64,000 nucleotides of DNA. It comes from Eledone cirrhosa. Taxonomy: Eukaryota. Positions 3,078-63,418 of this stretch are shown piece after piece. The stretch covers positions 65,906,001 through 65,970,000 of the forward strand of contig OZ024747.1 in the NCBI GenBank assembly GCA_964016885.1, read 5' to 3'. Made by a program: the position numbers and the translations under genes. Positions within the stretch are counted from its first letter, which is position 1. Each line of letters opens with the position of its first letter. Below the pieces are notes generated by a model. That model was not told the DNA's origin. It was given only the letters and a program-made list of their open reading frames with translations, and did not search any database.

Positions 3078-3114
<37 letters not shown>

Positions 3115-3117
3115 AGT

Positions 3118-8424: not shown

Positions 8425-9222
<798 letters not shown>

Positions 9223-11092: not shown

Positions 11093-11291
11093 ATATATAC
11101 ATTTGTGTGTATGTTCGTATGTATATGCACATACATACATACATACATACATACATACATACATACATACATACATACATACATACATACATACATACAT
11201 ACATACATACATACATACATACATTCATACATAATACGTTGGTGTATTTGCAGCAACATATCTTTTATATTGTATATTTTGTAGCCGTTGC

Positions 11292-32278: not shown

Positions 32279-32855
32279 TGCGGTGGATTGGCAGTATCGG
32301 TAGAGGGTCGGACACTATGCTTTGATGTATAGAGTTACACCCCTTGTCATTCTGCGTTCAAATCCCGCCAAGGTTAACTTTGCCTTTCATCCTTACGGAT
32401 CGATAAAATAAAGTACCAGTAATGCACTGGGTAATTGCTGGCCTTGTGCCAAAAGTAGAAACAATTATTAACAAATCTTCAGATTTTTATATGTGAAAAG
32501 GAAAAGGAGCAAATATATTAAAATTACATCAACCATAATATATATTATTGGTATTTATTAGTGAGAGGGCGGTGGATTGGCAGTATCGGTAGAGGGTCGG
32601 ACGCCATGCTTTCCAGCATAGTTATGTCCCTTTACGATCTGAGTTCAAATCCCGCCGAGGTTGACTTTGCCTTTCATCCTTATGGGGTCGATAAAATAAA
32701 GTACCAGTAATGCACTGGGTAATTGCTGGCCTTGTGCCTGAAGTAGAAACAATTATTAACAAATCTTCAGATTTTTATATGTGAAAAGGAAAAGGAGCAA
32801 ATATATTAAAATTACATCGACCATAATATATATTATTGGTATTTATTAGTGAGAA
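32279..32855 (+). repeat. Tandem duplication of SINE plus flank (~290 bp unit x2)
   Basis: Two SINEs (32279-32470, 32569-32757), each followed by the same ~95 bp flank aacaaatcttcag…tagtgaga. Confidence 0.88.
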
Positions 32856-33109
32856 CGAAGAGGGTTTTTACCTACTAGAAACATCTACCAAATTTCCTTC
32901 AATTATCATCTTAAGGTTTTAAAAAAGAAGAATATAATTCTAGAAGTATTGTGTGAGTAAAATTCGAAATCATCACTGTTGGACTGTTTAGATCATAGTC
33001 TTTTGAACGGTACGTCACCATTCTCCTAATAGCTTTGGTTCCATGGCTAATGCAGCTTTCGTGTTGTCTCTTTCAACGAGACTTTAGTTGTCTCCCTTTC
33101 TAGATAGAC

Positions 33110-35540
33110 GTACTCGTGGGGTTTGGAGGCCGCGCGAAAACAGGCAAGGCGGTGCTGGTCGAGCTGGCGCGTGAGCCTGTCTGAGGCCAGGCTGCACTGG
33201 ATGGCATCCCATACGCTTTAGGGGGACTTGACGTCAGCAGGGGGAGAAGGAGGAGGGACGTCTACTGGGCTAAGTCTCAGCCTGTCCCACGTCTCACAGG
33301 CGACCTTACGTTCTCTGAACACAGAGGGTTCTATTGTGTTTTGGAGAACCCTGATGACGAGGACGCGGCATGAGGTTACCGATGAAAGAAACGGCGGCAG
33401 CGACAGCAAGATCGAGGACCGGAGGGCAAGGCCGCCAAATCTGACAGGTAAAGTGGCCTGTTGCCATCCAATGTCGTCAAACCGGACGTTGCATATCTCC
33501 TCAGCTGCCGCTCGGATACAAGTATCGAGGTCAGCGAGGAGAGATGCGTGGCTGTAAAACGGAGCGCTGCGAAGGATGTAGAGGAGCTTCGGCATGGCGA
33601 AGCAGTTCCTCAACAGGAAGCGAGCTGGGTGGCCGTCGAGCAAGCCCAGTCGGCTCGTGAGGGTCTGGAGTTGTTGGCGCCTAGACCTGATGGTGGAGCG
33701 GATGGCCAGCGAGTGGATCAGTGACCCGAGGATGCGGACATCCTCTTTGGGGGTCACCTGTACTTGGTGGAGAATGGACCGCCCGCCCAAGACGGAGGCT
33801 GCAAGGCTCTGAGCATCATAGTTGACATCCACTACCTCCGACTTGGACGAGTTAACCTGGAGGCCGATTCCCGCCAGGGCAGGAACCACCGATTGAAGGT
33901 CATGGCAGACAGTCCCCAGGGGCCTACCCAGCGTAGCATCGTCCAGGTACAAAACGTTGAGAGGGGCCGTGATACTCTGGTCAATGTGGTCTATGCCAAT
34001 GGCAAACAAGAGAGGGCCCAGAGGGTTGCCCTGTTGGACCTCAGTGGCCGAAGTTATGACCGTGTCAGCAGCAAGGAGCATGCTCGGGGCTCCATATGAC
34101 AAGTAGGCCAGTGGGTAGGTGGAGGAGCCTCGGCTGAGCCAGACATTGAGCAGATCGTCCCGGCGTATGCAGTTAAAGACATTCCTCATGTCAAGCTTGA
34201 CAATGAGGTGCCTGGAGTCCTTCAATGCCGGTTCCGGTGGGCAGCTATTGAAGAACAGCCTGGTTGCATGTGTCTCCCCCTCACAGCCACCTGACACGCC
34301 GACACCCAGTTGCACCGGACTGTACTCCTCGCCCAGTTCAGGTGTTATGGACCTGCAGACCACCTTAGTAGCCAGCCTCCGGAAGACATTGCCCACAGCG
34401 ATGGGGCGAATGCCACCCTCTTTCTTCCTGAGAGCGGTCAGGCTAGCCGAAAAAAAGAGGCCTCGGGCGTGAGAATCCAGGGCGCCATGGATAAGCCTAT
34501 TAGTAAGTGCCACAATAGCATCCAGAAGGCGGCGCCCGGCCTCAATGGAGAGGGGGGATAGCAACTCTTTGAGGTGGCCTGGTCGCAGACCATCAGCATC
34601 TCCGCTGCTGCTAGCTGGGAAGGGCTTGATGGCAGACATGATGTCTGCGTCGGAAGCCACAAGGAGTAGGTGGGGATCGGGTGGGGGTATGGGTCGGAAG
34701 TCAGCGGGTGGCTCAGGGTGCTTGAGTCGCAGGGCCGCCAGGACCTCCTCGGTGGGTTGGAGGACAGTGTCTTCTGAGGAAACCACTTGACTGCGGCTCT
34801 GACATCACCCATGAAAAGTTTAGCGTTTACGCGGTCACGCAAACGCTTGGCGCTGGCCTCTGGTGTGGAGTATTGGAGGCACCCAAGAGCAGGGGTTGTG
34901 GCGTCCTTCGGCACGCTTGGAATGGGCGCTTGCCCAAAGGACGAAACATTGGCCTTGACTAAGGCTGCTGTCGACCGGCCACCTCGGTCAGTGCCAGAGC
35001 TGGGGAGGCCGAGGGCAAGTGGGAGAAATAGAAGAGGCGCTCCCAGTCGCTGGCTCGATTGGAGTCCAGAGCACTCTCGATCGAGGAAGCGAGGGCATTG
35101 GCTACCCGGGCCGCTCTCGGGATCCTGAGCGGAATATTCCGGAGCCGCCTGAGCCGAGCGATGTTGACCAGCGAGGCTTGGGCATCAGGCAAGCTCGCTG
35201 TCTCAACTGGCGGAGTGCCAGACGGTCGTGGCTGGGCAGACGAGGGGAAGAGACAGTTTCTGCATCTCCACGGTGCGAGGGCACTGGAAGCTCGACGCGT
35301 CAAGCCAACACAGGTGAGGTGGTGGAAAGGGCCGCACCCAGAACAGTTACTGCCCCTTTTCCGTCTGTTCGTGGTGCTGCAAGTGCTGCAGATGTCGACT
35401 GGTGAGGATGGAGGATGCGGCGTGGAGCAGGGGACTGGCGAACCAAGCGGCATCAGGGGTGAATGGCTAATTGTCACCAGCCTAGGTGCTAGGCACAATT
35501 GCTCACCTACATCAGATATGGAGGCGACAGAAGACAAGAT
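33110..35540 (-). mobile_element. CRE-clade non-LTR retrotransposon, 3'-truncated, with N-terminal PHD finger
   Basis: ORF 33218-34786: LKHP, DGLRPGHLK, KKEGGIRPIAVG.VFRRL, QLGVG, VQQGNPLGP, YLDD, LLRNCFAMPK, LPVRFGGL, the CRE-type RT signature. Upstream frame has a C4HC3 motif. Confidence 0.82.
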
Positions 35541-35556
35541 AAAAGAGAAGGACACA

Positions 35557-35635
<79 letters not shown>

Positions 35636-38585: not shown

Positions 38586-40143
38586 TTAAAGGAAGAAGCA
38601 CTTATAACAGTTAGTCCAACTAAATTTTTTTCCTACATTGGTTTTAACGTTGAGTGAGAAGGGAGGAGAGAACCAGATAGTTTGTCTATTGTTGCGCTTA
38701 CTTTTCTTAATGGTGTTGTTGCTAGTGGGAGAGTAAGTGATAGGTTGTGAGAAGCCGCTGTTAGCTAACTCCGTGTTATAGTAGGGTGCCGCCCAGTCAA
38801 AGATAGCTTTATTAGAGGAGAGGTTTGAGATTCTAGTACTGATATTCTTAACGAAGTTTCTAAAAACAGTGGGAGGGTGGCATGAGTCCTTGTGAATGTA
38901 ATTGAGTTTCTCGTTTAGCTTATGGAAGGGTCTGTGGGTGTGTGTGCGAAGGTCTAAATTAATGTCTAAGAAATCTACGCTAGAGAGGTTGGTGGCTACT
39001 GTTATCCTAAGTCCTAACTCATTCAAGGTAGAAGCTAAGTCTTTTTTAAACCGGTCGAGGTCGTGACCACTTTTATGGCTCGATAAAGTCAGTCCATCGT
39101 CGCGGTATATTCCCGTGTGGAAGTCCGGGAATCTAACACGTAATATGTCTAAGATAAATAGGCCAACCAAGTCACATACGTCAGCACTGTCAAACGATCC
39201 CATGGAGACGTCGAATAGGTCTGAAGTTGTAGACTTCTTTGCCCAGGCTACTCCGTCGTTGAAGAGGAGAGTTTTCTGGCAGTGAGCGATGATTTCCCTA
39301 TCTAAACCATCGACGGTGGTATAGGTGGTAGCGAAGTTCAACACTTTGTTTAACAGGGTCTCTGAGATCGACGGGTAAAATTCGACAATGTCAAACTGTG
39401 TGAACTTCGCTTTTTGGGGATTTTAAGGAGTTAAACCACTTAATTACGGAGTCGTTGTTCTCCCACTGGGGTAGGTTGGACTTGGTCCTAATGGTCTTAA
39501 CTATGTTTCTAAGTATGGCCTTACTGACTAGTCTCATATCTGTGCGTGCCGGGTTTATTAGTCTACATGTGGGGTTAGAAGTAAAGTCTACCTTGTGATT
39601 TTCAGGGTGAGGAATGCCTCCCGCTTAGCTAGAGATTGTAGCTTCTTATCTACCTTAAGGTCGGCGACAAGTTCCTTGGCTTCTGTATTAATGTCGTGGT
39701 AGGCCATAGGGTTAGCTTTCTTATATTTGGAAGTAATAGCGTTATGGGCCAGGTGGCGGAAAGTGGTGTGTCGACTTCGTAAATATTATTAGTTTTGTTG
39801 GAAAGAACGAAGCTGTTATTAGAAGACCTACATTTCTTAATATCATTTCTGAGTTTCGTTTGAAAGGTGTTAGTGTGTTTGCGAAAGGAAATGTTTAGTG
39901 TGTTTTCGAAAAGTCAAGAAGGTCCGTCTCGAAAGGAGCAAGTTCAGTTACCTTAGGAGGGTAGGCTCTAGATTTCAGGCTGAAGGTGTTGTTGGTGCCT
40001 GTAATTTTGCCGTCAAAAGCTAGGGCTCGCCATCTTAAGCGTCTGACGACATCTTCCGCTTTTTGTAGGAGGAGCTTTTGTTAAACATGGTTGGAGGGAG
40101 CTGGAATGTTCTTCAGGGAGTAATCCAGTTCGTATAAATCCAT
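38586..40143 (-). mobile_element. Penelope-like element (Naiad-type) RT, disrupted, GIY-YIG missing
   Basis: MDLYELDYSLKNIP…RRLRWRA N-terminus; SMGSFDSADVCDLVGL, IYRDDGL, VDFLDINLDL, SCHPP, WFSPPFS.NVKTNVGK. Confidence 0.85.
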
Positions 40144-44379: not shown

Positions 44380-44796
44380 GATTTAAACTATGCTGCAAAA
44401 TCAAAAATATAATCATTTATTATACGCACAATATTTATATTATTTATATCACCTACAAATCAATTGAGTGAAAATAAATAATTTCTAATTATGATATAGA
44501 TATTACCGGACTGATGCACCAGAAATGCACACGAAACTGAAGTTAAATAGCTTGAAAGGGAGTCAATTAAATGAACCAGTGTTATTAAAACCATCACTGT
44601 TCAATTGAATAACAACAACAACACCAATAATGGTAATCTCTGTAAGAATGATATCCCTCCATGGATGAGTGTGTGTGTGTGCGTGCACGGATATCTTGTA
44701 TTTATATGTATGTATATGTATGTGTATATGTATATATGTGTGTATGGGTATGTATGTATGTATGTATGTATGTATGTATGTATGTATGTATGTATG

Positions 44797-45476
44797 TTCT
44801 TCTGGTTTTATAATTTCACAAAGTTTTACCAATAGAGAGAGAGTCGGTTTCTAACATAGACACAAGACTCTCTCATTGGAATTTACACAACATCAACTAG
44901 GTAGATATGTATGTATGTCTGCATGCATGTGTGTGCAGGTGTGGATGTCATTGTATGTGTGGTTGTGTATGCTTTGAGTTGTATGTGTGCATGTGCATAC
45001 GCTTTGTATCTGTATATGTGTATATGCAGTTATTAGATGCAAAATTATTAGAATGTTTTACATATTTTTACTGTTCCATTAATGGATTGTACTTGTAATT
45101 TCCTAACTAGTTGTGTTCTTTCTGTTCCTGTGAGGCCCAGCTTCTCAAGATTTGTATTGAGGCAGTTACTAACATATCCCAGTGCCCCAATAATCACAGG
45201 CATAAATCTGAAGGTATAATCAGGGTGGAATATCTGCAGATTTCTCATTAGTTCTGCATAAATATTTTCCTTTTCGCTAATCTTTGATATTAAATTGGCA
45301 TCTGCTGGGCAGCTAATTTCCACTACTGTGCATGTTTTCTTTTCCATGTCCAATATGATTATATCTAGTCTGTTATGCCTGCATTTTATTGGGGTTTTTA
45401 CTGGAACATTCCACCAGTACTCTTTCATATTGTGTATATGTATGGCTTCCACATTACGGTAGCTTTTAATGTGTTT
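44797..45476 (-). mobile_element. R4/Dong-like RLE element copy A, 5'-truncated
   Basis: Near-identical to 45501-46180; flanked by (TATG)n on both sides. Confidence 0.9.
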
Positions 45477-45500
45477 TGTATATGTATGTATGTATGTATG

Positions 45501-48500
45501 TTCTTCTGGTTTTATAATTTCACAAAGTTTTACCAATAGAAAGAGAGTCGGTTTCTAACATAGACACAAGACTCTCTCATTGGAATTTACACAACATCAA
45601 CTAGGTAGATATGTATTTATGTCTGGATGCATGCATGTGTAGATATGGATGTTATTGTATGTGTGGATGTGTATGTTTTGAGTTGTATGTGTGCATGTGT
45701 ATATGCTTTGTATCTGTACATGTGTATATGCAGTTATTAGATGCAAAATCTTTGGAATGTTTTACATATTTTTACTGTTCCATTAATGGATTGTACTTGT
45801 AATTTCCTAACTAGTTGTGTTCTTTCTGTTCCTGTGAGGCCCAGCTTCTCAAGATTTGTATTGAGGCAGTTACTAACATATCCCAGTGCCCCAATAATCA
45901 CAGACATAAATCTGAAGGTGTAATCAGGGTGGAGTATCTGCAGATTTCTTATCAGTTCTGCATAAATATTCTCCTTTTCACTAATCTTTGATATTATATT
46001 GGCATCTGCTGGGCAGCTAATTTCCACTACTGTGCATGTTTTCTTCTCCCTGTCCCATATCATAATATCTGGTCTGTTATGCCTGCATTTTATTGGGGTT
46101 TTTACTGGAACATCCCACCAGTACTCTTTCATATTATGTACATGGATGTCTTCCACATTGTTGTAGCTTTTAATGTGTTTATTATCGGGGCTATCTTTTT
46201 TACGAACTGCATTGTATAGTGTTTTGGCCACTACATCATGCCTCATAGGTAGATAGTACCGCGATGACATCTTTGGGCAGCTGCTGATGACATGGGTGAT
46301 ATCCTCGATGTTAGTTCTGCAGAGTCTGCACTTGTTATCACATCTCGGTGTTTTGCCTGCATCCCTATCTCTTTTGTGAATCAGGTATTTCGTGCTAATC
46401 TCCTGTTCTTGGATTGCAAAAGCGTATCCTTCAAAGTGGGAGCCAATATAGCGGCTGTTGGTCCAAGTTTGACTACTTTCCTTATCTATATTACTCTCAC
46501 TTTGGAGCTTCCTGGCAACATATCCATGCATGAATTTTTGCTGATAGGCATGCAGTTTTTCATCCATGGATTCACTGCGATACTGCTGAGCGACATCCCT
46601 GGGTGTGAATTTTTGATTATCACACAGGGAATATCTCTCAAGGAGTTCCTTCCCAACTCTCATGATCTTATCTGTTTCATGCAGATAGACTTGCTCGAGA
46701 AGCGGGCTCCTACGCTTCGAGGTTCGTAGATGTTGTCGGAGAGATATGATGCGACATTCAAATGTTGTCTGGACTGATGTTAGGCCTCCCTGCTTACGTT
46801 TCAAGTAAAGGCGGTCTATGTCACTGTTGGTGTGGAAGTTTCCGGTGTTGTTCAGTATTTTCTGAGTTCCAACATCAACTGCTCGGATTTCGTCTATCGT
46901 CCAATTGAGTATTCCAAACGTTGGTGTTAGGACAGGCACAGCAAACACATTGTGAGCCACTGTTTTGTTTTGCGCAGAGAGTTCCGATGACCAGATCTTT
47001 CTTAATCGGGTGTAGTATTCCCTGGTTACGCGTTCTTTATTACAGATACCATTATAGGATATGTTCTTATCTATCCCCAGGTATCTGTAGCAGTCCTCAT
47101 CAGATATCGGTGAAACAGTTAGACCATTGATGACAATGTTGCTAGATTGGGTTGTTGTTTTCCCCCGCTTTACAGTCATGTATGAGCATTTATCTTGGCC
47201 AAACTCCATTCCTATATCCTTTGAGAACGTTGTAACCAGGTCAAGATTTTTCTTCATCCCATCCATGTTCTTGGCATAGAGTTTCAGATCGTCCACAAAG
47301 AAGTTATGGGTTAAGTTCGTACTTCTGTCCTCCTGTGAGCCAATGATGTATCCCTCACATTTCTTGAGCAGAAAGGACAAGGGGTTTAATGACAAGATGA
47401 ACAATATCACAGAGAGACTGTCCCCCTGAAATATACCCCTGCAATATTTTATTTTATCAGTGAAAATAGAGTCCTCCCTCTCTGTTTTTAACCTTAGGAT
47501 AGTAGCCCAAGAAGAAGACAGCCTCTCTATGGCTCTGACAATAATGTCTGGGACTTTAGCAAGTTGGAGGGCCTCTATCATCCAAGAGTGAGGAACAGAA
47601 TCGAAACCTTTCCTGTAGTCCAGCCAGACTGTAGTCATATTCCTCCTAAGTTTTCGCACCTCCGACATCGCAGTTTTGTTGATTAGGAGTTATTCAGCAC
47701 ATCCCCAAACCCTTTTCTTTCCAGCTGCTTGTACATCTGTGATGATGTTATTATTTTCACAGTGATCTTGGAGGAATAGGTTCAGGCAGGCTGTATACAT
47801 CTTATACATCAGGTTCTGGCATGCAATGGGTAGGTAGTTTTTTGCCAAGTGGGTGTCTTTGTTCTTGGGGACCAGTAACGTTTGTGCTAATGTCAACCAT
47901 TCTGGTATAAGTGTATCTCCCTTAAGAACTTGTTGGTAGAGGTCAGTAAGATACCTCCGATAGAATATTAGTTTTTTGTACCAGTAGCCGACAATCATGT
48001 CTCTTCCTGGTGTTTTCTTATCTTGGAGTTTTCCTATCACAGTCTCAAGGGTACCCTCACTTATTTCGTATGTTTTTGTTGTAGTGTAGGAGCAATAGTT
48101 CTTTCGGATTTCTCTTAGCCACACTGCATCTTGGTTGAAATTCTTCTTTTCACCCCATATTTTTCTCCAAAAGGAATCTATGTCTTTCTGGGATGGGGCC
48201 TCAGTGACACTTATTATTTTGCCCTTCATATCTCTATAGACTGATGTTTGGTTTCGTCTGAATCTTTTATTAAGCATTATTCTCTCATCTACCTTCTTCA
48301 GGTATCCGCGTTTTTCGCTAACAGCTCTCAATTCTTGTTTGAGGGTGATCAACTTATATTGGAGAGTTCTGGTTCTACTGTTACCAAACATCGTCTCTAT
48401 TTTATTTTTCACTCTTTGTTGGTGAGGAGTGAGGTTTTTTTTGTGTTTGTTTGCATGTAAGGGGCATTGTCACATGTCCTATGTTTTTCGTAGGTCAGCA

Positions 48501-49605
48501 CTCTTTTTTTCTATTTTAGCTATATATGATGGTATTTTTGGTGGTGTTTTGTTCTTGTTAATATCTCTGCTATCACCAAGATAATGCTTCACTGTCATTG
48601 CTAAGGCATATAAACAGGCGTTGATTTGCCAAAATGTTGGGGTTTTTATCCGTCGTAAATATTCATCCCCTATTTCGTCAATAACACGTAGTATTTCATT
48701 ATTTGGTTTTTTATTCACCATTGTCATTTTAACACGTTAAGCCAGAGAGATATTTATACATGAGTTAATTTCTCTCTGGAAGATTTCGTTGTGGGAAATT
48801 TTCAATTGTTTATACTTTTGATTATCATTATCGATAGTATTTTCCACAACAGTCGAGGTAGACTCGGATGGTATACGTGGTGTCACATTTATTCGATTAT
48901 TATTATTTCTTCGATTATTATTATCGATAATGTTTTCCCCAGCATTCGAGGTAGACATAGATGGTACACGTGGTGTCAAATTTCTTACAGGCATAGTTGT
49001 TTCAAGGCGCTGTTCGACCTGGCTGCTAGGACGTCTAGTAGCATGGTGATCTGTAGCACGTGTTGTTGATTCCTTGTTTGTTATGGGGGACTTACAATTA
49101 ATAATATTTATCTTATTTTTACGTTCAACAAACGTCGCTTGTTGGCGTAATTGTTTCGCTGTGAAATAATTTAGCTCTGGGTGCATTTCGTCCCAGTGTA
49201 GCTTCATTCTATTCATATAGCCATTTTATAACAATTAAATAAATCATTATTAAGTTCGCAACTCCAAGAGAAATGCGATTTATAATTTCGGTTTCTTCTG
49301 TAGCTACAACTGAATAAAGTTTGATTACCTTCTTTGTTATTTGTCTTCGATACTTCCTTAATTTTGTTGTTGATGTTGTGTTCAGCCATGCTGTTTGTAG
49401 CAAATCCTTGTAAAATGTATTATGTATTTAGTCGGATATCTCTACGAATTCGAATAAAAGGTGTCTTCAGAAGGGATAGTTAGAAGAATAACCAGTTATT
49501 CAACCTGGCTGTAGTTGTGGCATTACTGTCGGAGATAGTATTCATCTTAAATTTAATAAATAGTCTCCCACGCCAAAATATGCGACTGATCGCGTTGACT
49601 GATGG
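45501..49605 (-). mobile_element. R4/Dong-like RLE non-LTR retrotransposon copy B, near full length
   Basis: One reading frame in pieces (49403 to 45737): WLDYRKGFDSVPH, GIFQGDSLS, FVDDLK, RLYLKRKQGG, CRLC…H…C, RHD, RPD…EISCP RLE motif, IIGALG. Confidence 0.9.
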
Positions 49606-49634
49606 ATATGTATGTATGTATGTATGTATGTATG

Positions 49635-49733
49635 TTCTTCTGGTTTTATTATTTTATAAATTTTCACCAGAGAGAGAGAGATTCGGTTTCTAAACAAGAC
49701 TCTTTCATTTGAACTTAGACATCAACTAGGTAA

Positions 49734-49829
<96 letters not shown>

Positions 49830-49848
49830 GTGCGTGTGTGTGTGTGTG

Positions 49849-49901
<53 letters not shown>

Positions 49902-50745
49902 TATATGCAGGTATGGGACTTATTGGTTGTCTGAATCTGTATCTTTCAATTTATATGTGTTAATGTGCATATGTTTCTGTATCTATACAGGTGTTTATGC
50001 AGTTATTACATTGCTGAATTTCTGTAATGTTTTACATATTTTAATAGTTCCCTTAATAGACTGCACTTGCAACTTCTTAAATAACTGTGCCCTTTCTGGT
50101 TCTGTGTTGCCCAACTTTTCAAGATTTGTACAGAAGCAGTTAGTAATATCAGAGCCTTAATGATCACAGGTACAAACCTAAAGGATTATGCAGGGTAGAG
50201 TATTTGCAATATTTTTATTAGTTCAGCGTGTTAAATATGTCGCCGACATGGCTGTTTCAAGAGACTGTTTAGGTATTTCCCTTGTTTCTTGTTGCTGGTC
50301 GAACTGGTTACGAGAAACCATAGTAATATCGTGGCCTGTTACACTTATTGATTGTATGGCCGGTCTAGGAGACTGCTCACTTAGTTTTGTTATTTGCAAG
50401 GGTTTCACACTTTCAATATTGTTTTGAATAATGTTTATGCTATTTTTATGTCCAACAAACTTTGCTTGTTGGCGTAATTGTTTAGCTGTGAAATAATTTA
50501 GCTCTGGGTGAAGTTCATCCCTGTATAGCGTCATTCTGCCAATTTAGCCAAGAAAGCGATCTTTTTTTGCTATATTATAGCAAGAAAAATGTGATTATAG
50601 TTTCGGTTCCTTCTGAAACTACGACTAAAAATATTTATTTTACTTTCCTCGTTGTTGTTATTTTCGATTCAGTATTGTTGATCTTGATGTCGTGTCCACC
50701 CATTATGTTTGTAGCAAATCCTTGTAAAGTGAATACAATATTTAA
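49635..50745 (-). mobile_element. R4/Dong-like copy C, diverged, large internal deletion
   Basis: Same 3' end at (TATG)n. The C-terminal tip (~50000-50220) is joined to the N-terminal DELHPELNYFTAKQLRQQA region. Confidence 0.8.
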
Positions 50746-51409
50746 ACGGTTTAACGAAAGTTTGTCACGTTTTTGGTTAGCTCGCATGTAGGACCTCATG
50801 TGGGTGTTTCTCTATGACCCCACTGAAAAGAATTTTAAAAGCTTTACACCGGAGAATAGAGAAGATGTACGGAATGAGTCATTCCAACTCACGTGGCTTA
50901 TTCTTGCGTATGGCTAACTCTGTCTTGATAACACTGAGTAGGGAGGTGGTTTGGGGACTCAGAACACTAGAAGTTGACACCGTTGTGGTTTTGACAAGAA
51001 GAAGTCAGTTTCACTCATAATTTAAATTCATTTAATTGCTTTCCCTTATAGAAGTCAGATGCTAAATAATATTATTTGTTTTTAATAACGAAATAAATGA
51101 AATTCTTTGTCTTCGTGAAAATGTTATTATTATTTTTTATTGAAACAAATCAAAACAGGGTTGCAATTTTAAAATCCATTACTGAATATCACGGATATTA
51201 CTTTTCACCCGAATGATTAATGTTTTCAATATAAACATTGTTTCATTAAAAGTATTTTATCACCACCGCAACCACTAGAACTACAAAAACTGACGCGAAA
51301 ACACACAATGTGCACAACATCGATCTCGGAGATCACCAAGATAAATCAAGACTGCATAGGATAGAGGGTGGAGTTCTTAACCCAAATGGACAAAAAAAAA
51401 AATATATAT

Positions 51410-52420
51410 ATATAGAGGCCATTCCTGATGTTATTGACCTCGACGAAAGCACCCACCTACTCATGGCCGTCGCGGGTAGAAAGCCAAGATGTCTCATGTG
51501 TGGGCACAAAACCCATCTAAAGGCCTTCTTGGATGCACGCTGAGACTGTGTGGGAGTAGCAAAAAAGGTAGGAGGATGTAAAAGTCTCGCCAACCTGCTC
51601 AGACGGTTCCAACTGTCCGACAGGTTCCGTCTGGATTTCCTGAATGTGCCTGTGTGGACATGGACAAACCGCATCGGGTCATCCAGATCGTATCTAGATA
51701 GGGTCTTCTTTAGGGATATAGATAGAACTAGCATAGGATGTCCACTTTTCAAGATAGTTCGCTACATAGACCACAGATTTGTTATCTGCGTGGTCTATTT
51801 AGATAGGTTGCATAGACAGGGACCTGTCTACTGATAGCTGAAGGCGTCGCTCCCGGCACGTAAAAACTACAGAGACCGGATTAGCGAATTAGTTAGACGG
51901 GCGTTGATGGGGGGCAGTCGTCAACAACAAATGGTGGTTCGCCTTGAAAGGGGCGATCTAAGTAGAAGGTTATAGTGATAGAAGAGAATAGACACGAGGG
52001 AGAACTAGTTAGAAAACTAGACGAGACGCTTAGAAAAGTCATTGCGATCGACGTGCAAGTGGCGAGATTGGCCCTCGCCCAATTTTTCAACGCTAAGCAT
52101 GAAGGTTGCGTTGTCAAACCTAGGGCGCGTGCACTAAGACACGAGGGAACGAAAGCTGTTCAATGAGCCCGTGTGGCGGAGGCGCGGCGTGGCAACAAAA
52201 TTACGATCCGATATTTGGCGCACCACGACGGGCGCATGTTAGCCTATCCCGAGTAGATGTGTGCGGTTTTTCAACTGATTGGGAGCAATGGCGGGGAACT
52301 GAAACGGTATCTTGGCTGCACGCTGAAATTGTATGGGAGTAACTGAAACGGGTCTACCTTCCAAGTTTTGCATTGCCAAGCCAAATATGGTCTACGCTGT
52401 CCTCGAAGCTGTCTATTGTA
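51410..52420 (+). mobile_element. Old degraded Tx1 relic
   Basis: ORF1 knuckle (AGRKPRCLMCGHKTHLKA) joined by deletion to APE (SSRSYLDRV) and AKHEGCVV; no TATC flanks left. Confidence 0.8.
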
Positions 52421-54884: not shown

Positions 54885-54957
<73 letters not shown>

Positions 54958-54967
<10 letters not shown>

Positions 54968-55598
54968 GAGATCAATATCTCCAGAGGTACTAAGTATCCC
55001 TGGAAATATATAGGGTGTCTATAATACAGTGGTTGTTCTATAGTATTAATTTGACATACTAGAACTATAAAATTGGGATAAGCGGAGCAAGTAAGATTCA
55101 AACAATTTTTTAAAATAAATTAAAAAAATTAATTTTAATATTTACCTATTCCATTTGCTTTTACCGACGGTAATGTATATTTCCAGGGATACTTAGTACC
55201 TCTGGAGATATTGATCTCCTTTTATATATTCTTCGTTATGTAGAGAACAAATCCGTTGTTTTATTTAGCTGCTATTTTTAGTGGCGTGATAGACAACACG
55301 TCTATGTCTACTTCCGCTTCTACTAAGAGCTGGTTCATGCACAGGTCAAATTTACGGCCTCATTCGATCCTGTGTTAGCTGGCAGGTGGCAATATATTTT
55401 GCCGTTCCTGGGACTTTTGTCCTAGGTAGGGAAAATGCTTTCTGAAGATCTAAACATTTCCATTAGAAATCCCTAGGATTTCCAATCTTTTGTTCAGTGA
55501 AACCGTCGGTAAGAGCAAATGGAATAGGTAAATATTTAAATTATATTTTTTTATTTATTTTAAAAATTTGTTTGAATCTTACTTGCTCCGCTTATCTC

Positions 55599-55602
<4 letters not shown>
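54958..55602. repeat. Interleaved inverted repeats A-B-A'-B' (Penelope-like pseudo-LTR relic)
   Basis: A 54958-55010 is inverted at 55176-55228; B 55071-55171 is inverted at 55502-55602. Confidence 0.8.
55437..55516 (+). ncRNA. Type I hammerhead ribozyme with long stem II
   Basis: gcttt-CTGAAGA-tctaaaca…gaaatcc cta ggatttc…tgttcagt-GAAA-ccgtcgg-TA-agagc. Confidence 0.75.
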
Positions 55603-55678
<76 letters not shown>

Positions 55679-55716
55679 ATATATTTGTATATGTATATAT
55701 ATATATATATACATAT

Positions 55717-55787
<71 letters not shown>

Positions 55788-56169: not shown

Positions 56170-57122
56170 GAAAATGGGCGACTGGCACATCGAATGTGCT
56201 CAGGCGCTCATAGTCCTCTGGCAAACGGACCCGGCGATCAGTGGAGACTCCACTTCGACATTCTATAGAGGGTTGGTCCGCAGCAAGTGCGACGACACGC
56301 TCGGAGAAACTCTAGGTGTAGAGGAGGACGAACTGGCCAGTCTGTTCGGTAGGACCTTCCGCCGGGACCGATGGACAACTTCCAAAAGTCCCTGGCCTGG
56401 CAGTGCTACCGAGGAGCTCTACCAGTTCGAGACAAGCTCTACAGACACGGGAGCCCGGGTAGGGACCCTTCGAAAAAGATCTGTCCGAGATGCGTGCGCG
56501 AAAGGGAAACCGTCGCACACGAATTTGTACACTGCCCGGGCGTTACCGACCTGTGGGGCTATGTAGAACGACTATTGTCGAGGGTGGGACCAATCCAGTT
56601 GACCACCGAGTCCATTGTCATGATAAAACCGCCACCCTCCTTCAAAAACGAGGAGAGGCGGTTTTCCTATGTGTTATGGCTATGGTGAAAGAGGTTATAT
56701 GGTGGACGAGGTTAAAAGGGGTGAGGTCAGACATCTTTCTCTTCGGCGAGCAACTGATTCGTTTTTTCAAATATCATTTTGGAAGAAGAATCAGGATGGA
56801 GAGAGAGGTGCTGTACCCCAGCAAATTTTATAAAAGGTGGGTGAATGTGGCAAAGATGGCCCGAGTAGTTGGGCCTTCTCTCTATATAAGCCTGTAGGTT
56901 GATGAAAAAGAGGAAGAGAGGAAGGGAGTACTCACTCTTGGTGCTGCTGGAGATGAGGGTTGTAAATTTTTTCAGGGTGTGTACAACCCCTGTGTAACAC
57001 CTTCCCCCTATTGGGGATTTTAATTGTTATTTGTATTAATAGTTTTATTTTCATATACCTGTATGTAAACTCCCCATTTGTATTTGTCCCCTTCTTTTGT
57101 GCCCTTGTGGCTAATAAAGAAA
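56170..57122 (+). mobile_element. Tx1 copy 6, heavily 5'-truncated
   Basis: KMGDWHIECAQAL…CPRC…GPSLYISL* (56897), 3' UTR, AATAAA, TATC. Confidence 0.92.
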
Positions 57123-60004
57123 TTTATCTATATATCTATCTATTTATCTATTTTCTATCTATCTATCTTTCTATCTATCTATATATTTATCTATCTATAT
57201 ATATATATCTACCTACCTACCTATCAACCTATCTATTTTCTATCTATCTACCTACTTCCCTGTGGCAAAGAAATAAATATATCTATCTACCTACTTCTAT
57301 CTATCTATTTATGTATCTATCTATCTATCTATCTTGATAGAGTAAGACACGGTTCACATCGGCTCGGCTATTCCATCGGGATTTACCCTTACTATAGTAA
57401 GTACCGGATAAATTTTTCAGTGCAACACATTTGGAACACTAACCCCTGTTATTTAGGGAAACATTTTTGCATTTACCCCCTTTTTAGGGGGTAAAATAAA
57501 TATCTATTTTTTTGCCGAAAAATTTCTTTCTTGGCAGCATGGCGGAAAAGATGGCAGACATGTCTGCCATTAGCTCTGCCACGCCCCCAAGTCTGAAGAA
57601 CAAAAAATAATTACAACAAAATTAGACAACGAAACAAACAAGGAAAATGAAAAAACAAATGTTAAGGAAAATGAGCAAACGGAAAACAAACAAACAGAAA
57701 ATAATACAAATAACAACAGGGCAACTTTCGCCCAGAAAACAAAACAATCCATAACATACACACCAATCGACTTAACTGCCGCCAGAGAAAAACTGGCCGA
57801 AGCGAAAAGACAAATAGTCTTGGGGGAGAACGGAATGTTTTCCATTAACTCCCCCCCAGAATTCAAGAAAGCCAGAACAGAGAGCACAGTTCTCTTCAGA
57901 ACTATACTGAACCAAACAAGAAAGCCAGCACAGCCCAGCCAAATGGAAATAGAGTTGGTCCTAAAAGACTATATGAAGAATATTCTCTTCATACGAAAGG
58001 ACCGACTCTATGGCAGCATTTCGGTCTTAACAAAAGACAAGGAAACGGCGGAGAAGCTTTCCCTAAGCCCACTCTCATCGACAACATACAGCTTCTATCC
58101 CTCCTACATGGGTAGAAGAACACAGAGAGTAAAAGTAAAAACAATGCTGCCCACAATAGACTTCTGGTGGGCTATTGCTGGCTTCATAGACATGGGCGAT
58201 GACACAATGCTGTCAATGGGGAAGGCAACTGGAGATGCGTTCCTGGGAATGGGCCTCGACATACTAGTCCAAATGAGGCCCGAAAGAATAGCACAAATCC
58301 CGGATCGCATCTGGCTGGATGACCTTACCCCAATAGATATAATTGTAGAGGGGAGAAGACCAGCATGCTATTTATGCATGGAAAGGGGACACGTTAAGGC
58401 TAACTGCCCGAAACGTATCCCCCAAAAAGGACTATTGCCCACACCCACCACAAACAGTACACCAACACCACCCACCTCCAAAAATACACTAATACCACAC
58501 ACAGCAAACAAAATACAGACACCACCAACCACAAACACAACACAAACATCACCACCACCAGCACCAAACACAAGCACGACACAAAAATCACCACCACCAA
58601 CCACAACACAAACATCACCACCACCATCACCAACCACAAGCACGACACAAACATTACCACCACCACCACCACCACAAAACCCATTCCAAACAAATAATAA
58701 AAAAAAACAGTAACAAATCTACCCCTCCCGCAAAAAAAACAACCACACAACACGTCCCTCCCACCTAGCGCTGAAGAGTTTCCCCCAACTTCTGAAGAAG
58801 AAGGAGGAGAAGCCTTCAGACAAGTTAAAAGAAAAAAAAGAAAACACACACCCAGCACACCACAAATAACCCACACACAAACACCAACTCCAATCAAAAA
58901 CACCCCACCCTCAACAAACAAAAATAAATCTGCGCCTCCCCTCTCCGAAACATTGACAGCATCACAAAAAAAGACGTTGCAATACACATATATAAATAAA
59001 GAAAACAAAAAACTGGTTAAATTAATAAACAATAACCCTATGGTGCAGACCGAAGGGCCAAACTTTATCTCAACAGAGAACTTCACCCATTTAAAAATGA
59101 TAAAGGTCCCTCTGGACCTTTATCGTTCCTTAAAAGAACAATTTAGACGGGACGTGAGCCCCCCCCCCCCTGTTTAAAACCGTTAAATCGCGTCCTCTTG
59201 AAATATTTCCCCATAACCGCCCCTCTCCCTGACACAACTCCAAATACCCCAACCCCACCACACACGGGTACCCCCACACCACCACAAAACATCCCTCCAC
59301 CCAACACACCTGATGCCATGGAAATTACACAACCCGGAGAGGTAGGTGCTTTTCTTTCTTCACTTTCAACACCAAAATAGATCAATTGAGAGTTGGCTGT
59401 TTGAACGCGCGTGGCCTGGACTCAGCTTGGAAGCAAGCAAAGCTTCTAAATGACCTCAGGTCACAAAGTATAGATGTGATGGTTGTTTGCGAGAGTCGGA
59501 TCAGCAGCGTGAGACAGCTGGCGCCCGCCTTCGATGACTTTTAGATGCACGCATCTCTCTGTCAACCCGGAGGCGGGGGGGGGGGGAGTTGCCGTACTGC
59601 TGGATAAACGTCTGGCTCTCGACGTACAGATTGTTCACTCGGACCCGGGGGGCGGGGGGGGGGGGGCGATTACTGGTGCTGGACGTCGGAGGCGGTGAAG
59701 GCGGGGCTTTCAGACTGGTCGGTCTTTATGCCCCCTTCGGGGCTGAAAGAGCCGACTTCTTTCAGCGTCTGGAGACTTTTCTAGGAACGTCGCGTTCCCT
59801 TCTTTTAGTGGGGGACTGGAATGGAATCCTAGATGCGCGTTGGGACTATGCAGGGGCATGTCCCGATAGAGGGGGTGTAGCAGCCTCAAGGGGTTACTCG
59901 ATCGATTCGACCTGGTCGATAGATTTCGACTAGATTGTCCAACTGCGCCAACCTGGACCTGGGCAAACCGAAGTGGACAAGCTAGATCGTACCTAGATAG
60001 GTTT

Positions 60005-62830
60005 TTGGTTAGGAGTAAGGATAGGGACGTATTTAGTTGTCCAGAATTGATCATGGTTGGCTATTCAGATCACAAATTAGTGACCTGCGTGGTCAACCTT
60101 GATAGAACGCATAGACAGGGTCCCGGTTACTGGAAGATGAACTTGTCCTTGCCGGCAAAGAAAGATTACAGGAACCGGATTAGTAGCTTAGTTAAGATGC
60201 GGTTGACGGGAGCGATCGTCAACAGTAGGTGGTGGGTATCTCTAAAGAGAGAGATTAGAGTAAGTTCGATAGGTTACAGTAAGGAACTAGCGGCGAATAG
60301 AAATAGGAAGGAAAGGGAGTTAACAGATAAACTAGAAGAGGCGATTAGGAGCGGAGACGTAGCCAGAGTGTTAGCGGCGAGAACGGCGTTGAGCCAGTTC
60401 TTTGACGCGAAGCACGAAGGCTGCGTTGTCCGAAGTAAAATACGTGCTTTAGGAAACGAGGGGACCAAAGCTGTCAGCTGGGCCCGCGTGACAGAAGCCA
60501 AGAGTGGGATTAAATCCACCATTCGGTCTTTGCGAGACCAGGATGGACGGGTGATCCTTGAACCTGAGCGGATGTGCGAGGCCTTTCAAAGGCACTTTGC
60601 TCGACTGTTCGGAGGGGGCGGGGGGCCGGACGGGGATGTGGACTTCGGTCCATACCTCGACGGTCTACCGCGTCTTTCGAGCGGCGAAGCGGAGTGCTGC
60701 GAAAGGCCAATCACAGCCACTGAAATCGGGGAAGCGCTCAGCCAATGCAGCAGACGCAAATCCCCGGGTCTCGATGGTCTACCATACGAACTTTATTTAG
60801 CTATGCCGGTCTTGTTCTCCGAACTCCTCGAGGCTGTCTATTGCAACTGGCAACAGAACGGGAGAATTACCTGTTCTGTGACCAAGGGCGTGGTCACGCT
60901 AGTGAGGAAGGACGAGAGCAAGGGGGACGACTTAAGTAACTTTAGGCCCATAACTCTGCTGAATGCAGAGTTACAGATTTTGGCCAAGGTGTTGGCGAAG
61001 AGGTTGGCGCTTGTGGTGGGTGGTTTGGTGGGAGACGCGCAGACATGCGCTATCCCGTCCAGGTCCATTCACGACAACCTCCACCTCATGCGATACATCA
61101 TAGAGAGGGTTGGCAACGAACCCGGCTTTGGTGGGGCCCTGATCAACTTGGATCAATCTAAGGCGTTCGATAGGGTCGACCATGGTTACCTGGATGCGGT
61201 GCTAGCGGCGGCGGGCTTCGGACCCGTTTTCAGGGGCTGGATTTCTGCCATGCACAGTGGCAACATCTACTCTAGGATTAAAGTAAACGGCTACCTCTTG
61301 GAGCCGTTTCAAATCACCCGGTCCATCAGACAGGGGTGCCCCCTCTCCTCCCTTCTGTACGTATTGACTCTCGAGCCACTGCTGCGGAAGTTGGAGTTGC
61401 TGCGGGGCATACCCCTGGAACCGGGATTGCACAAAGCGGTCTCGGCCTATGCCGACGACGTAACAGTAATGGTGGCGGACGCCTCGGAAATCGGGGCGAT
61501 CGCCACCCTACTGGAGGAATACGGAAGGCTGACGGGGGCTAGGCTGAACCAGGACAAGTCAGTCGGTTTGCAACTCGGAACGTGGAGGGGCAAACCGATG
61601 CCGTTAGACGGTGTCGTCGGGCGGTGGACGGAGGGCCCGGTGAAGCTGCTCGGGGTCTGGTTCGGACCGGACCTCCAGGTGGAGAAGAATTGGGGCGAGG
61701 TGACGAGCAGGGTGTTTGCGCTGACCCAGAAGTGGGCCAAGTGCAAACTATCACTGAAAGGTCGGGCGGAGGTGACGAACGCTTACATAGCGTCCGTCAT
61801 CTACTACCGCCTGACCGTCGTGCCTTGCCCCAAGGAAAAGCTCACCATCATGGAACGCATACTCTTCCAGTTCCTCTGGAAGAAGCGGCCTCTCATGGTG
61901 AGGAGATCCATCTGCTGCCAGCACCCTTCGAAAGGAGGGCTGGGTATGCCGTGGCTGTTGATGCGTAGGCACGCATTGAGGCTACGGCATCTACAGGTAT
62001 TCCTCAACGGTCAGCCGGTGTGGGCCCCGTTTGTGAGGCGAGCCTTCCCACAGCTCGTCTCGCTCACCGAACTGCAATCCTGGGTGAAGCAAAGACCGAG
62101 AAAACTGGGCAACTGGCACACCGAGTGTGCCCAGGCGCTCACGGCTATCTGGCAAGCGGACCCGACTATCAGTGGAGAATCCACCTCGACATTCTATAGA
62201 GGGTTGGTGGCTAGCAAGGGCGACGACACCCTTGGAGAGTCGCTAGGCATGGAGGAGGACGAACTGGCCAGCCTGTTCGGTAGAACTTTCGGCCCGGGAC
62301 CCATGGACAACTTCCAGAGGTCCCTAGCCTGGCAGTGTTACCGGGGGGCTCTGCCCGTTCGAGAAAAGCTCTACAGACACGGGCGCCCGGGCAGGGATCC
62401 CGCGAAAAAGATCTGTCCCAGATGCGTACGCGACGAGGAAACCGTTGCGCATGCACTGGTACACTGCCCGGGCGTTGCCGATCTGTGGGGCTACGTCGAA
62501 CGACTGCTGTCGCGTGTGGCGCCGATTCGATTAACCGCCGAGTCTGTGGTGAACATCAAGCCGCCTCCTCCCTTCAGAAATGAAGCAGAGGCGGTCTTTC
62601 TGTGCGTAATAGCCATGATGAAAGAGGTTGTGTGGTGGACGCGCCTGAAAGGTCTGAGGTCGGGTGACTTTCTCTCCGGCCATCACCTGGTTTACTTCTT
62701 CCGATACCACTTCGGAAGAAGGATCAGGATGGAGAGAGAAGTGCTTGGCCCCAGACAGTTTTATGAAAGGTGGGTGAAAGAAGCGAGAATGGCCCGTGTA
62801 AATGGGCCTTCTCTCTATATTGTTCTGTAG
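60005..62830 (+). CDS. Uninterrupted 941-aa portion of ORF2 (APE end, RT, CCHC)
   Basis: YSDH, GYWKMN, KSPGLDG, DQSKAFDRV, RQGCPLS, YADD, CPRC..DEETVAHALVHC. The N-terminal APE part upstream is disrupted. Confidence 0.85.
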   Translation: MVRSKDRDVFSCPELIMVGYSDHKLVTCVVNLDRTHRQGPGYWKMNLSLPAKKDYRNRISSLVKMRLTGAIVNSRWWVSLKREIRVSSIGYSKELAANRNRKERELTDKLEEAIRSGDVARVLAARTALSQFFDAKHEGCVVRSKIRALGNEGTKAVSWARVTEAKSGIKSTIRSLRDQDGRVILEPERMCEAFQRHFARLFGGGGGPDGDVDFGPYLDGLPRLSSGEAECCERPITATEIGEALSQCSRRKSPGLDGLPYELYLAMPVLFSELLEAVYCNWQQNGRITCSVTKGVVTLVRKDESKGDDLSNFRPITLLNAELQILAKVLAKRLALVVGGLVGDAQTCAIPSRSIHDNLHLMRYIIERVGNEPGFGGALINLDQSKAFDRVDHGYLDAVLAAAGFGPVFRGWISAMHSGNIYSRIKVNGYLLEPFQITRSIRQGCPLSSLLYVLTLEPLLRKLELLRGIPLEPGLHKAVSAYADDVTVMVADASEIGAIATLLEEYGRLTGARLNQDKSVGLQLGTWRGKPMPLDGVVGRWTEGPVKLLGVWFGPDLQVEKNWGEVTSRVFALTQKWAKCKLSLKGRAEVTNAYIASVIYYRLTVVPCPKEKLTIMERILFQFLWKKRPLMVRRSICCQHPSKGGLGMPWLLMRRHALRLRHLQVFLNGQPVWAPFVRRAFPQLVSLTELQSWVKQRPRKLGNWHTECAQALTAIWQADPTISGESTSTFYRGLVASKGDDTLGESLGMEEDELASLFGRTFGPGPMDNFQRSLAWQCYRGALPVREKLYRHGRPGRDPAKKICPRCVRDEETVAHALVHCPGVADLWGYVERLLSRVAPIRLTAESVVNIKPPPPFRNEAEAVFLCVIAMMKEVVWWTRLKGLRSGDFLSGHHLVYFFRYHFGRRIRMEREVLGPRQFYERWVKEARMARVNGPSLYIVL

Positions 62831-62967
62831 GTGAAGAAGTGAAGAGGAAAGGGGGAGCGCCTCCTCTCTGGGCTTCCCCCGCGAAAAGAGTTGCACACTT
62901 TTCGGGGGTATGTGCAATCCCCAACACGCCCCCTCCCTTTTGAGGACTTTTTATTGTTATATTATTA

Positions 62968-63065
62968 TTTGACTTTGCCTTTCATCCTTACGGGGTCGAT
63001 AAAATAAAGTACTAGTAATGCACTGGGTAATTGCTGGCCTTGTGCCTAAAGTAGAAACAATTATT
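62968..63065 (+). mobile_element. SINE fragment nested in the 3' UTR of copy 7
   Basis: SINE body with a possible TSD ttattgttat (62951-62960 and 63064-63073). Confidence 0.8.
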
Positions 63066-63160
63066 ATTGTTATTCCTTTTTTCTTTACTCGATTTATGTA
63101 AACTCCCCCACTGTGTAAATGTCCCCTTCTTTTGTGCCCTCGTGGCAAATAAATAGAAAT

Positions 63161-63217
<57 letters not shown>

Positions 63218-63219
<2 letters not shown>

Positions 63220-63418
63220 GCACAACACGCTCCTCGAGTTGAGGGTTGTTCTATCGACGGGGTATTAAACAACCCATTTGTGGCGCCTCCCCCCTATTGG
63301 GGATTTCGATTGTTGAAATTGTTTGTTTTTATAATTTTTACACGACTGTATGTAAAATCCCCGGCATGTCTTTGTATTGTCCCCTTTTCTTGTTGCGCCC
63401 TTGTGGCTAATAAAGAAA
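63218..63418 (+). mobile_element. Tx1 3'-UTR-only fragment (copy-4 type)
   Basis: Near-identical to 25303-25503; TATC on both sides. Confidence 0.9.

What the first reader, a model, noticed from the sequence alone, without database searches (positions are those of the whole stretch)
44745..50745. Second, unrelated microsatellite-targeted array: R4/Dong-like elements in (CATA)n
Seen: three tandem minus-strand copies end identically (…ccagaagaa|catacatacata at 44797, 45501, 49635). The 5' ends of A (truncated) and B also abut TATG/CATA runs. An RLE-type element thus builds the same architecture as the APE-type Tx1 family on a different tetranucleotide, suggesting niche partitioning of microsatellites. 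Established: Dong (R4 clade) targets TAA repeats. CATA specificity may be new.
Basis: partly seen in the sequence, partly recalled or inferred. Interest (0 to 1): 0.7.

Follow-up and report, generated by a model that had tools for sequence, protein, structure and literature searches.

The report
Dong-like retrotransposons stacked in CATA repeats
Three dead copies of a known kind of jumping gene (a Dong/R4-like LINE) sit head-to-tail, each ending in a run of the DNA repeat CATA, which suggests this lineage inserts into CATA repeats instead of the TAA repeats reported for its relatives; this is a modest variation on a known theme and is not yet proven.

Summary
Three minus-strand copies share a 14-nt 3' end followed by (CATA)12, (CATA)5 and (CATA)7. 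C1 (44797-45476) is 5'-truncated. C2 (45501-49606) is full-length but broken: one ORF with a Myb-like N-terminus, RT, CCHC and PD-(D/E)xK endonuclease, no APE. C3 (49635 to at least 50749) is a 74%-identical subfamily with a ~3-kb internal deletion. Synonymous excess (dN/dS 0.35 and 0.28) argues for separate insertions, not tandem duplication.

The two CATA runs at 5' ends are also the 3' tails of the neighbouring copy. The only independent 5' flank (C3) has no CATA, unlike the neighbouring Tx1-like family, which has free (TCTA)n 5' flanks. Targeting is therefore likely (about 0.65) but unproven; template jumping or a looser CA/TA preference remain open.

Microsatellite targeting by Dong (TAA) is known, cephalopod Dong-R4 is abundant, and ACAY is already the target of the APE-type Waldo. 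I did not find CATA for an RLE element in the papers searched (Repbase unchecked). R4-clade placement rests on domains; no named references were available for a tree. Verdict: new variant of a known kind, interest 0.38.

The parts
44668..44748 (-). Degenerate CATA/CA/TA compound microsatellite downstream of the last tail; probable remnant of the original host target
   Evidence: Sequence; 7 CATA units in 58 nt, 0 of 10,000 mononucleotide shuffles reach this (a weak control for an alternating repeat)
44749..44796 (-). (CATA)12, tail/target tract of C1
44797..45476 (-). Copy C1: 5'-truncated (680 nt), C-terminal half of the endonuclease plus 3' UTR; PD motif changed to LD, two adjacent stops near the C-terminus
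   Evidence: 94.4% identical to C2 over 700 nt; dN/dS 0.35, binomial P=0.022
45477..45500 (-). (CATA)5 (45481-45500) plus a 4-nt junction; tail of C2 and 5' flank of C1
45501..49606 (-). Copy C2: full-length (4,106 nt), inactive RLE-type non-LTR retrotransposon
   Evidence: covers full-length relatives from about residue 8 to the end
45501..45736 (-). C2 3' UTR: CA/TA-rich stretch, then two predicted hairpins ending at the conserved terminus; TATAAA (AATAAA in C3) ending 10 nt before the end
   Evidence: fold z -2.9 (C2) and -3.6 (C1), but -0.3 in C3; alignment
45737..49389 (-). Single ORF (ATG at 49389), broken by a frameshift near 49222, a stop at 48737, two stops or offsetting frameshifts at about 48440-48481, and a stop at 47690
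45962..46330 (-). CCHC knuckle, RHD, PD-x14-E and K-x3-Y restriction-like endonuclease motifs (C454/C457/H466/C471, R483-H484, P540-D541, K572, Y576 of the 650-aa piece)
   Evidence: conserved columns; motif definitions in PMC4838377 and PMC12857005 passages; CCHC/RH aligns to R2
47072..47665 (-). Reverse transcriptase core (continues into the piece upstream of the 47690 stop)
   Evidence: Pfam RVT_1 E=6e-18; best PDB sequence hits are R2 proteins, E=6e-20
49118..49311 (-). N-terminal three-helix, Myb/SANT-like segment (split by the frameshift); no zinc finger
   Evidence: 58-69% identical to residues 8-79 of P0128; three helices in models of relatives; best VIA Z 6.1, inconclusive
49390..49606 (-). 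217-nt 5' UTR starting with two TCAGT motifs (initiator-like; resemblance recalled, untested)
49607..49634 (-). (CATA)7; tail of C3 and 5' flank of C2
49635..50749 (-). Copy C3: divergent subfamily (73-74% to C2), ~3.0-kb internal deletion at a 6-nt microhomology (50233-50238), (TG)82 expansion in its 3' UTR (49737-49900), ATG at 50703; true 5' end unmapped and no CATA upstream
   Evidence: dN/dS 0.28 over 112 codons, P=7e-5

Best explanation
An R4/Dong-like non-LTR retrotransposon inserts into (CATA)n tracts by target-primed reverse transcription. Shown: the protein has RT, a CCHC-PD-(D/E)xK endonuclease and a three-helix N-terminus; every copy ends at the same base, in the same phase, in CATA; the three copies come from different source lineages. 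Inferred: the Myb-like domain and endonuclease nick the (TATG)n strand. The RNA runs past a poly(A)-like signal into a few CAUA units, which pair with the nicked strand and prime cDNA synthesis. Each insertion therefore leaves a CATA tract at its 3' end, and that tract is a fresh target. Order inferred: C3 first, in or at the edge of a host CATA/CA/TA microsatellite, then C2 (complete) and C1 (truncated) into the tract behind it. All three are now dead. 'Tail' and 'target' are not alternatives in this model.
For: Domains: (a model of relative P0128 matches R2 structures best, E=9e-35). Separate origin: C1/C2 dN/dS 0.35, P=0.022; C3/C2 0.28, P=7e-5. Two 5' ends of different kinds (one truncated mid-ORF, one complete) both meet a CATA run, background 6.8e-4 each. 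A CATA-rich degenerate tract continues beyond the last pure tail. C3 looks more decayed: 4 disablements in ~735 nt against 5 in ~3,650 nt, counted by eye, P=0.049, which fits sequential insertion. Relatives at about 52-53% identity also appear stacked: 4 near-identical C-terminus-complete ORFs on an 18,187-bp contig, and 3 ORFs of two subfamilies on a 10,378-bp contig; this is 2 of 8 same-length groups examined, with the shared contig inferred from equal length. Literature: R4/Dong insert into rDNA or microsatellites (PMC7998251 passage); tandem copies arise by sequential insertion at a specific target (PMC4494074 passage on SINEU).
Against: The only 5' flank that is not another copy's tail (C3) has no CATA, and C3's 5' end could not be mapped (UTR alignment reached by 100 of 300 shuffles). 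One locus, three copies. No flanks from other copies or relatives could be read: the only long related loci were contaminant-like contigs at 29-34% identity; L001 is cut inside the ORF and L002 has no microsatellite. Six of the 8 contig groups were uninformative (pieces of one copy, or megabase contigs). The age difference between C3 and C2 is marginal and would mean nothing if C3 moved as an already broken RNA. A longer (CATA)23 tract at 11130-11221 is empty (neutral, since targets exceed copies).
Confidence: 0.65

Rival explanations
1. Relaxed preference: the endonuclease favours CA/TA-rich alternating repeats or a short TATG-like motif, and priming by the CAUA tail then writes a clean (CATA)n. 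CATA tracts, including earlier tails, are good targets but not the only ones.
For: C3's outer flank lacks CATA. The downstream flank is a mixed CA/TA/CATA tract, not pure CATA. Weakened specificity is documented for another RLE lineage, the crocodilian Utopia families (PMC4640811 passage).
Against: Both inner 5' junctions meet pure CATA runs, although (CA)n, (TA)n and (TG)n tracts are far more common in the window, including a (TG)82 inside C3 that carries no insertion.
Confidence: 0.17
2. CATA is only an element-encoded tail. The array came from one event at an ordinary site, with the RT jumping from the 5' end of one RNA to the 3' end (tail included) of the next.
For: Predicts exactly this pattern: CATA at all 3' ends and both inner junctions, none at the outer 5' end. 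End-to-end template jumping is known for R2 RT (Bibillo and Eickbush 2004, seen only as cited in PMC4494074).
Against: Needs two successive jumps among RNAs of three lineages, one 26% divergent and internally deleted. C3 looks older (P=0.049) and has a (TG)82 expansion. It does not explain the CATA-rich flank beyond the last tail.
Confidence: 0.13
3. The array is a tandem duplication, an unequal crossover product or an assembly artefact of one insertion.
For: C1 is 94% identical to the 3' end of the adjacent C2, and there is a weak 3-nt similarity at C1's 5' junction.
Against: Synonymous excess between C1 and C2 (9 of 22 changes at 20% of sites) and between C3 and C2 (29 of 69) shows divergence under selection in active lineages. 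Copies that are 94% and 74% identical are not mis-assembled duplicates.
Confidence: 0.05

Closest known systems
Dong elements (R4 clade; Bombyx Dong, DongAg, DongBg, Darwinula Dong1/2)
   Same: Single ORF with RT and RLE, Myb/SANT-like N-terminus without zinc fingers, microsatellite insertion (PMC7998251 and PMC3812793 passages)
   Different: [quoted passage not shown] Not compared by sequence: no named Dong protein was retrievable.
Cephalopod Dong-R4 LINEs
   Same: Size: 1,129 recent O. vulgaris insertions cover 4,732,901 bp, about 4.19 kb each, against 4,106 nt for C2 (PMC13282606 Table 1); 51 families and 92.7 Mb in its supplement; R4-Dong almost confined to cephalopods among molluscs (PMC10294476 passage)
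   Different: No target sequence is given in the parts read. The host of the window is not known; its resemblance to an octopus genome is recalled, not tested.
Waldo (WaldoAg1/2, WaldoFs1)
   Same: Target ACAY microsatellites, which include the CATA phase (PMC3812793 passage)
   Different: Waldo is APE-type; this element has a C-terminal RLE and no APE. If both are true targets, this is convergence.
R2 (R2Bm, R2Tg)
   Same: Closest solved structures by sequence and by fold; same RT-CCHC-RLE layout and TPRT model
   Different: R2 has N-terminal zinc fingers and targets 28S rDNA; no zinc finger in 25 of 25 long relatives, and no rRNA match around the array.
Togen and HERO families; Kibi, Koshi and crocodilian Tx1
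   Same: Other non-LTR families that target microsatellites: (TG)n for Togen, unspecified for some HERO; (TC)n, (TTC)n and (TTCC/TTTC)n for Tx1-clade families
   Different: Different repeat units and clades. They show that switching microsatellite target is common, which lowers the surprise.

Membership tests
R4 clade (R4/Dong/Rex6) | Single ORF with a central non-LTR RT | tested here: met
   RVT_1 E=6e-18; C2 is collinear with intact single ORFs of 1,083-1,208 aa at 36-49% identity
R4 clade (R4/Dong/Rex6) | C-terminal CCHC knuckle plus PD-(D/E)xK restriction-like endonuclease | tested here: met
   C-x2-C-x8-H-x4-C-x11-RHD...RPD-x14-E-x15-K-x3-Y read; conserved in the alignment; a strict pattern matched 19 of 25 long relatives; two spacings are slightly longer than the consensus quoted
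R4 clade (R4/Dong/Rex6) | No AP endonuclease | tested here: met
   No Exo_endo_phos in the C2 pieces or in 6 of 6 full-length relatives, while 3 pieces of the neighbouring family do match it
R4 clade (R4/Dong/Rex6) | No N-terminal zinc finger | tested here: met
   0 of 25 relatives longer than 1,120 aa match a C2H2/CCHC pattern in their first 430 residues
R4 clade (R4/Dong/Rex6) | Divergent N-terminal Myb/SANT-like domain (PMC7998251) | tested here: inconclusive
   Three-helix model of relative P0167, mean pLDDT 82.7. Top VIA rows are GT-1 (Z 6.1, rmsd 2.1, 55 aligned) and Zeste (Z 5.8), with many Myb/SANT rows and the R2 N-terminal region at Z 4.5, all under Z 8. Foldseek found nothing at E<=0.001; Atlas Myb_Rap1 score 0.80 is a lead only
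R4 clade (R4/Dong/Rex6) | RT phylogeny groups with named R4, Dong and Rex6 | not testable with these tools
   No hit carried an informative name. The tree of 34 rows has only unnamed relatives; it separates C2 from the window's APE-type RTs by very long branches and cannot assign a clade
Dong family in the strict sense | Insertion in (TAA)n | tested here: not met
   3 of 3 copies end in (CATA)n. Filed as Dong-like, not Dong
Nematode R4 / R2 | Insertion in rDNA | tested here: not met
   No rRNA family among 6 weak Rfam matches in 44500-51500
Waldo | ACAY microsatellite target | tested here: inconclusive
   The tracts are ACAT repeats, but targeting itself is not proven
Waldo | APE endonuclease | tested here: not met
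Target-specific non-LTR family (general) | Target sequence on both flanks of independent insertions | tested here: inconclusive
   3 of 3 3' flanks and 2 of 3 5' flanks are CATA, but both positive 5' flanks are tails of neighbours; 0 of 1 outer 5' flank
HERO or NeSL clades | RT phylogeny and N-terminal domain set | not tested
   No reference sequences available

The most novel reading that the evidence does not exclude
A Dong-like RLE lineage has switched from (TAA)n to (CATA)n, converging on the target of the unrelated APE-type Waldo. In this genome unrelated LINE families divide the microsatellites among themselves (TCTA for the Tx1-like family, CATA for this one, possibly TG for a CRE-like element at 33.1-35.6 kb). 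Each insertion regenerates its own target, so the elements build self-extending arrays and help make the genome microsatellite-rich.
Probability: 0.3. Interest if true: 0.6.

Novelty: new variant of a known kind. Interest (0 to 1): 0.38.

Why it matters
If CATA targeting is real, a TAA-targeting and a CATA-targeting Dong-type protein form a natural pair for asking which part (Myb-like domain, endonuclease or RNA tail) sets target choice in RLE retrotransposons. That question bears on retargeting R2-type proteins for gene insertion. It would also give a concrete reason why Dong-R4 can be very abundant in microsatellite-rich genomes while avoiding genes. A specialist would find a new repeat unit plausible rather than surprising, since many target switches among microsatellites are on record.

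Tried and rejected
Flanks of relatives: the one scan of bacterial and archaeal genome contigs gave 7 loci from 113 candidates. L001 (34%) is cut inside the ORF, L002 (29%) has no microsatellite, and L003-L005 fall on very long branches; L006 and L007 were short matches and were not used.

Named references: a search for longer relatives returned none (it covered only 1,989-5,000 aa). Cluster look-ups of 19 hits gave no informative names, and C2's own protein is not in the collection.

Ribozyme in the 5' UTR: no Rfam match other than low-complexity miRNA/scaRNA hits far below their cut-offs; UTR fold z -2.0. C3's 5' end: UTR alignment not better than shuffles. Conserved 3' hairpins: supported in C1/C2, not significant in C3 (63 of 200 shuffles as good). 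Foldseek on the N-terminal domain: no match at E<=0.001.

Octopus sequences in supplements of PMC9115989: no occurrence of 'Dong' or of short end motifs in the files held. File 5 yielded 93 characters, files 6-8 were not searched, and two archives were too large, so a published octopus Dong consensus and its tail may exist unseen.

Literature for a CATA target: (CATA + non-LTR retrotransposon + microsatellite + target, whole words) found 0 papers; searches gave none naming it in the listings or passages read. Kojima and Fujiwara 2003/2004, Xiong and Eickbush 1993, Fell et al. 2025 and Repbase were not read, and the target could be recorded there.

Tandem duplication was considered and rejected.
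Full report
Observation. The window is AT-rich, microsatellite-dense eukaryotic DNA; its host is not known, and the likeness to an octopus genome is my recall only. Between 44797 and about 50750 lie three minus-strand copies of one retrotransposon family, head-to-tail. The terminal motif occurs at 44797, 45501 and 49635 and nowhere else on either strand, the last 14 nt are identical, and the ends are followed in the same phase by (CATA)12, (CATA)5 and (CATA)7. These are three of the four CATA-type runs of five or more units in the window; the fourth, (CATA)23 at 11130-11221, is empty. Outside the array the chance that a position is followed by (CATA)5 is 1.6e-4 and that it is closely preceded by one 6.8e-4. 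The association is real.

Anatomy. C2 (45501-49606, 4,106 nt) is a complete element: a 217-nt 5' UTR, one ORF from ATG 49389 to the stop at 45737, and a 236-nt 3' UTR. The ORF is broken in at least five places and is collinear with intact 1,083-1,208-aa relatives at 36-49% identity; the best hits to its 650-aa C-terminal piece are 52-54% identical and unnamed. It carries an RT and, at the C-terminus, the CCHC, RHD, PD-x14-E and K-x3-Y motifs of a restriction-like endonuclease (motif definitions from passages of PMC4838377 and PMC12857005). R2 proteins are the closest solved structures by sequence and, for a model of relative P0128 (mean pLDDT 82.3), by fold (E=9e-35). There is no APE and no N-terminal zinc finger in 25 of 25 long relatives. 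The N-terminus folds as three helices whose best matches are Myb/SANT-like, at Z 6.1 or less, which is inconclusive. This is the layout described for R4/Dong (PMC7998251 passages). C1 is the last 680 nt of a sibling, 94.4% identical to C2. C3 is a divergent subfamily (73-74%) that has lost about 3.0 kb at a 6-nt microhomology and has a (TG)82 expansion in its 3' UTR.

Separate insertions. C1 and C2 differ by 9 synonymous and 13 non-synonymous changes (dN/dS 0.35, P=0.022); C3 and C2 by 29 and 40 over 112 codons (dN/dS 0.28, P=7e-5). Divergence under selection means different source elements, so the array is not a duplication or a mis-assembly. C3 has more disablements per base than C2, marginally (P=0.049; counts made by eye). 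Among relatives, four C-terminus-complete ORFs 98-99.9% identical share an 18,187-bp contig length, and three ORFs of two subfamilies a 10,378-bp one. That is 2 of 8 groups examined; the other six were pieces of one copy or megabase contigs, and the shared contig is inferred from length. Stacking may thus be a habit of the family.

Target or tail. They show that new copies met old tails, which random insertion would almost never do, but they do not show a host tract on both sides. The one outer 5' flank, above C3, has no CATA, and C3's true 5' end cannot be mapped. On the other side, the pure tail of C1 runs into a degenerate CATA/CA/TA tract (44668-44748) that looks like an older host microsatellite. 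So the architectures are alike but the evidence is not equal.

Mechanism. Most likely (0.65) the protein nicks the (TATG)n strand, an RNA carrying a few CAUA units past its poly(A)-like signal pairs with the nick, and TPRT inserts a copy that renews the tract for the next insertion. Domains, junction phase and separate origin are shown; nicking, pairing and order are inferred from the R2 model and from recall of read-through priming in other site-specific elements. Rivals: a looser preference for CA/TA-rich repeats (0.17); a templated tail with end-to-end template jumping, which predicts the missing outer CATA but needs two jumps across three lineages (0.13); duplication or artefact (0.05).

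Known context. Dong elements target (TAA)n; Waldo targets ACAY, Mino AC, Kibi TC and Koshi TTC (PMC3812793 passage). Togen targets (TG)n and some HERO families target microsatellites (PMC4640811 passages); crocodilian Tx1 families target (TTCC/TTTC)n (PMC4494074 passages). Dong-R4 is abundant and recently active in Octopus vulgaris at about 4.2 kb per full copy (PMC13282606, parts 1-2 of 3 and one supplement search) and is noted in cephalopods in passages of PMC8967140, PMC10294476 and PMC9115989 (supplement file 2 part 1), none of which gave a target in the parts seen. Passages of PMC6274825, PMC13580325, PMC5035012, PMC3124438 and PMC2861651 added no target for this family. A whole-word search for CATA with non-LTR retrotransposon, microsatellite and target found 0 papers. 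The primary Kojima and Fujiwara papers, Fell et al. 2025 and Repbase were not available, and unseen supplements of PMC9115989 may hold an octopus Dong sequence. No named R4/Dong/Rex6 protein could be fetched, so the tree shows only that C2 sits among unnamed relatives, far from the window's APE-type RTs.

Verdict. A real array of dead, Dong-like RLE retrotransposons tied to (CATA)n. It works like Dong but fails the TAA criterion, so it is filed as R4/Dong-like. The repeat unit is known as a target for another endonuclease class; its use by an RLE element may be unreported. Targeting is probable but not proven, and niche partitioning is untested. New variant of a known kind; interest 0.38.

Noticed in passing
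window 33090-35633 (-): A third, GC-rich retroelement with an RT ORF (33218-34804, RVT_1 E=1e-11) and a Cys/His-rich upstream frame; its motifs recall CRE-clade elements (recalled, untested). Its 5' side abuts (TG)41 at 35552-35633; the 3' end appears cut off near 33090. Possibly a third microsatellite-associated family.
   Followed up: partly
window 246-29782 and 56171-63418 (+): APE-plus-RT family in several copies 74-92% identical, ending in an AATAAA-like motif followed by (TCTA)n, with free (TCTA)n 5' flanks; short extra 3'-end fragments are stacked at 2842-3197 and 63140-63418.
   Followed up: partly
window 38586-39422 (-): 278-aa frame with a YRDD motif that resembles a Penelope-like RT (recalled); no Pfam match at E<=0.01.
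   Followed up: no
window 8312, 8519, 32374, 32661, 43274, 53518, 54612, 62969: A 60-100-nt core repeated at least eight times at 84-97% identity, SINE-like; two copies form a 288-nt tandem at 32280-32854.
   Followed up: no
window 51527-52274 (+): Old fragment of the APE-type family (64-69% identical to the others) just beyond the array.
   Followed up: no
window 48810-48986: An 84-nt internal duplication (81% identical) in the variable region of C2's ORF that makes it longer than its relatives there.
   Followed up: no
window 45610-45736 and 44906-45032: The 3' UTR itself holds about 130 nt of degenerate CA/TA/CATA repeat, perhaps a captured older target tract; in C3 it has expanded to (TG)82.
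   Followed up: no
L001 854-2314; L002 1496-3295: Short contigs in bacterial assemblies (a cyanobacterial MAG and Streptomyces narbonensis) encode relatives at 34% and 29% identity; probably eukaryotic contamination.
   Followed up: partly
window 54889-55769: Inverted pair of about 280 nt (80% identical) bordered by long (TA)n runs, MITE-like.
   Followed up: no
window 8877-8959: ARAGORN calls a tRNA-Thr in a low-complexity stretch; probably spurious.
   Followed up: no
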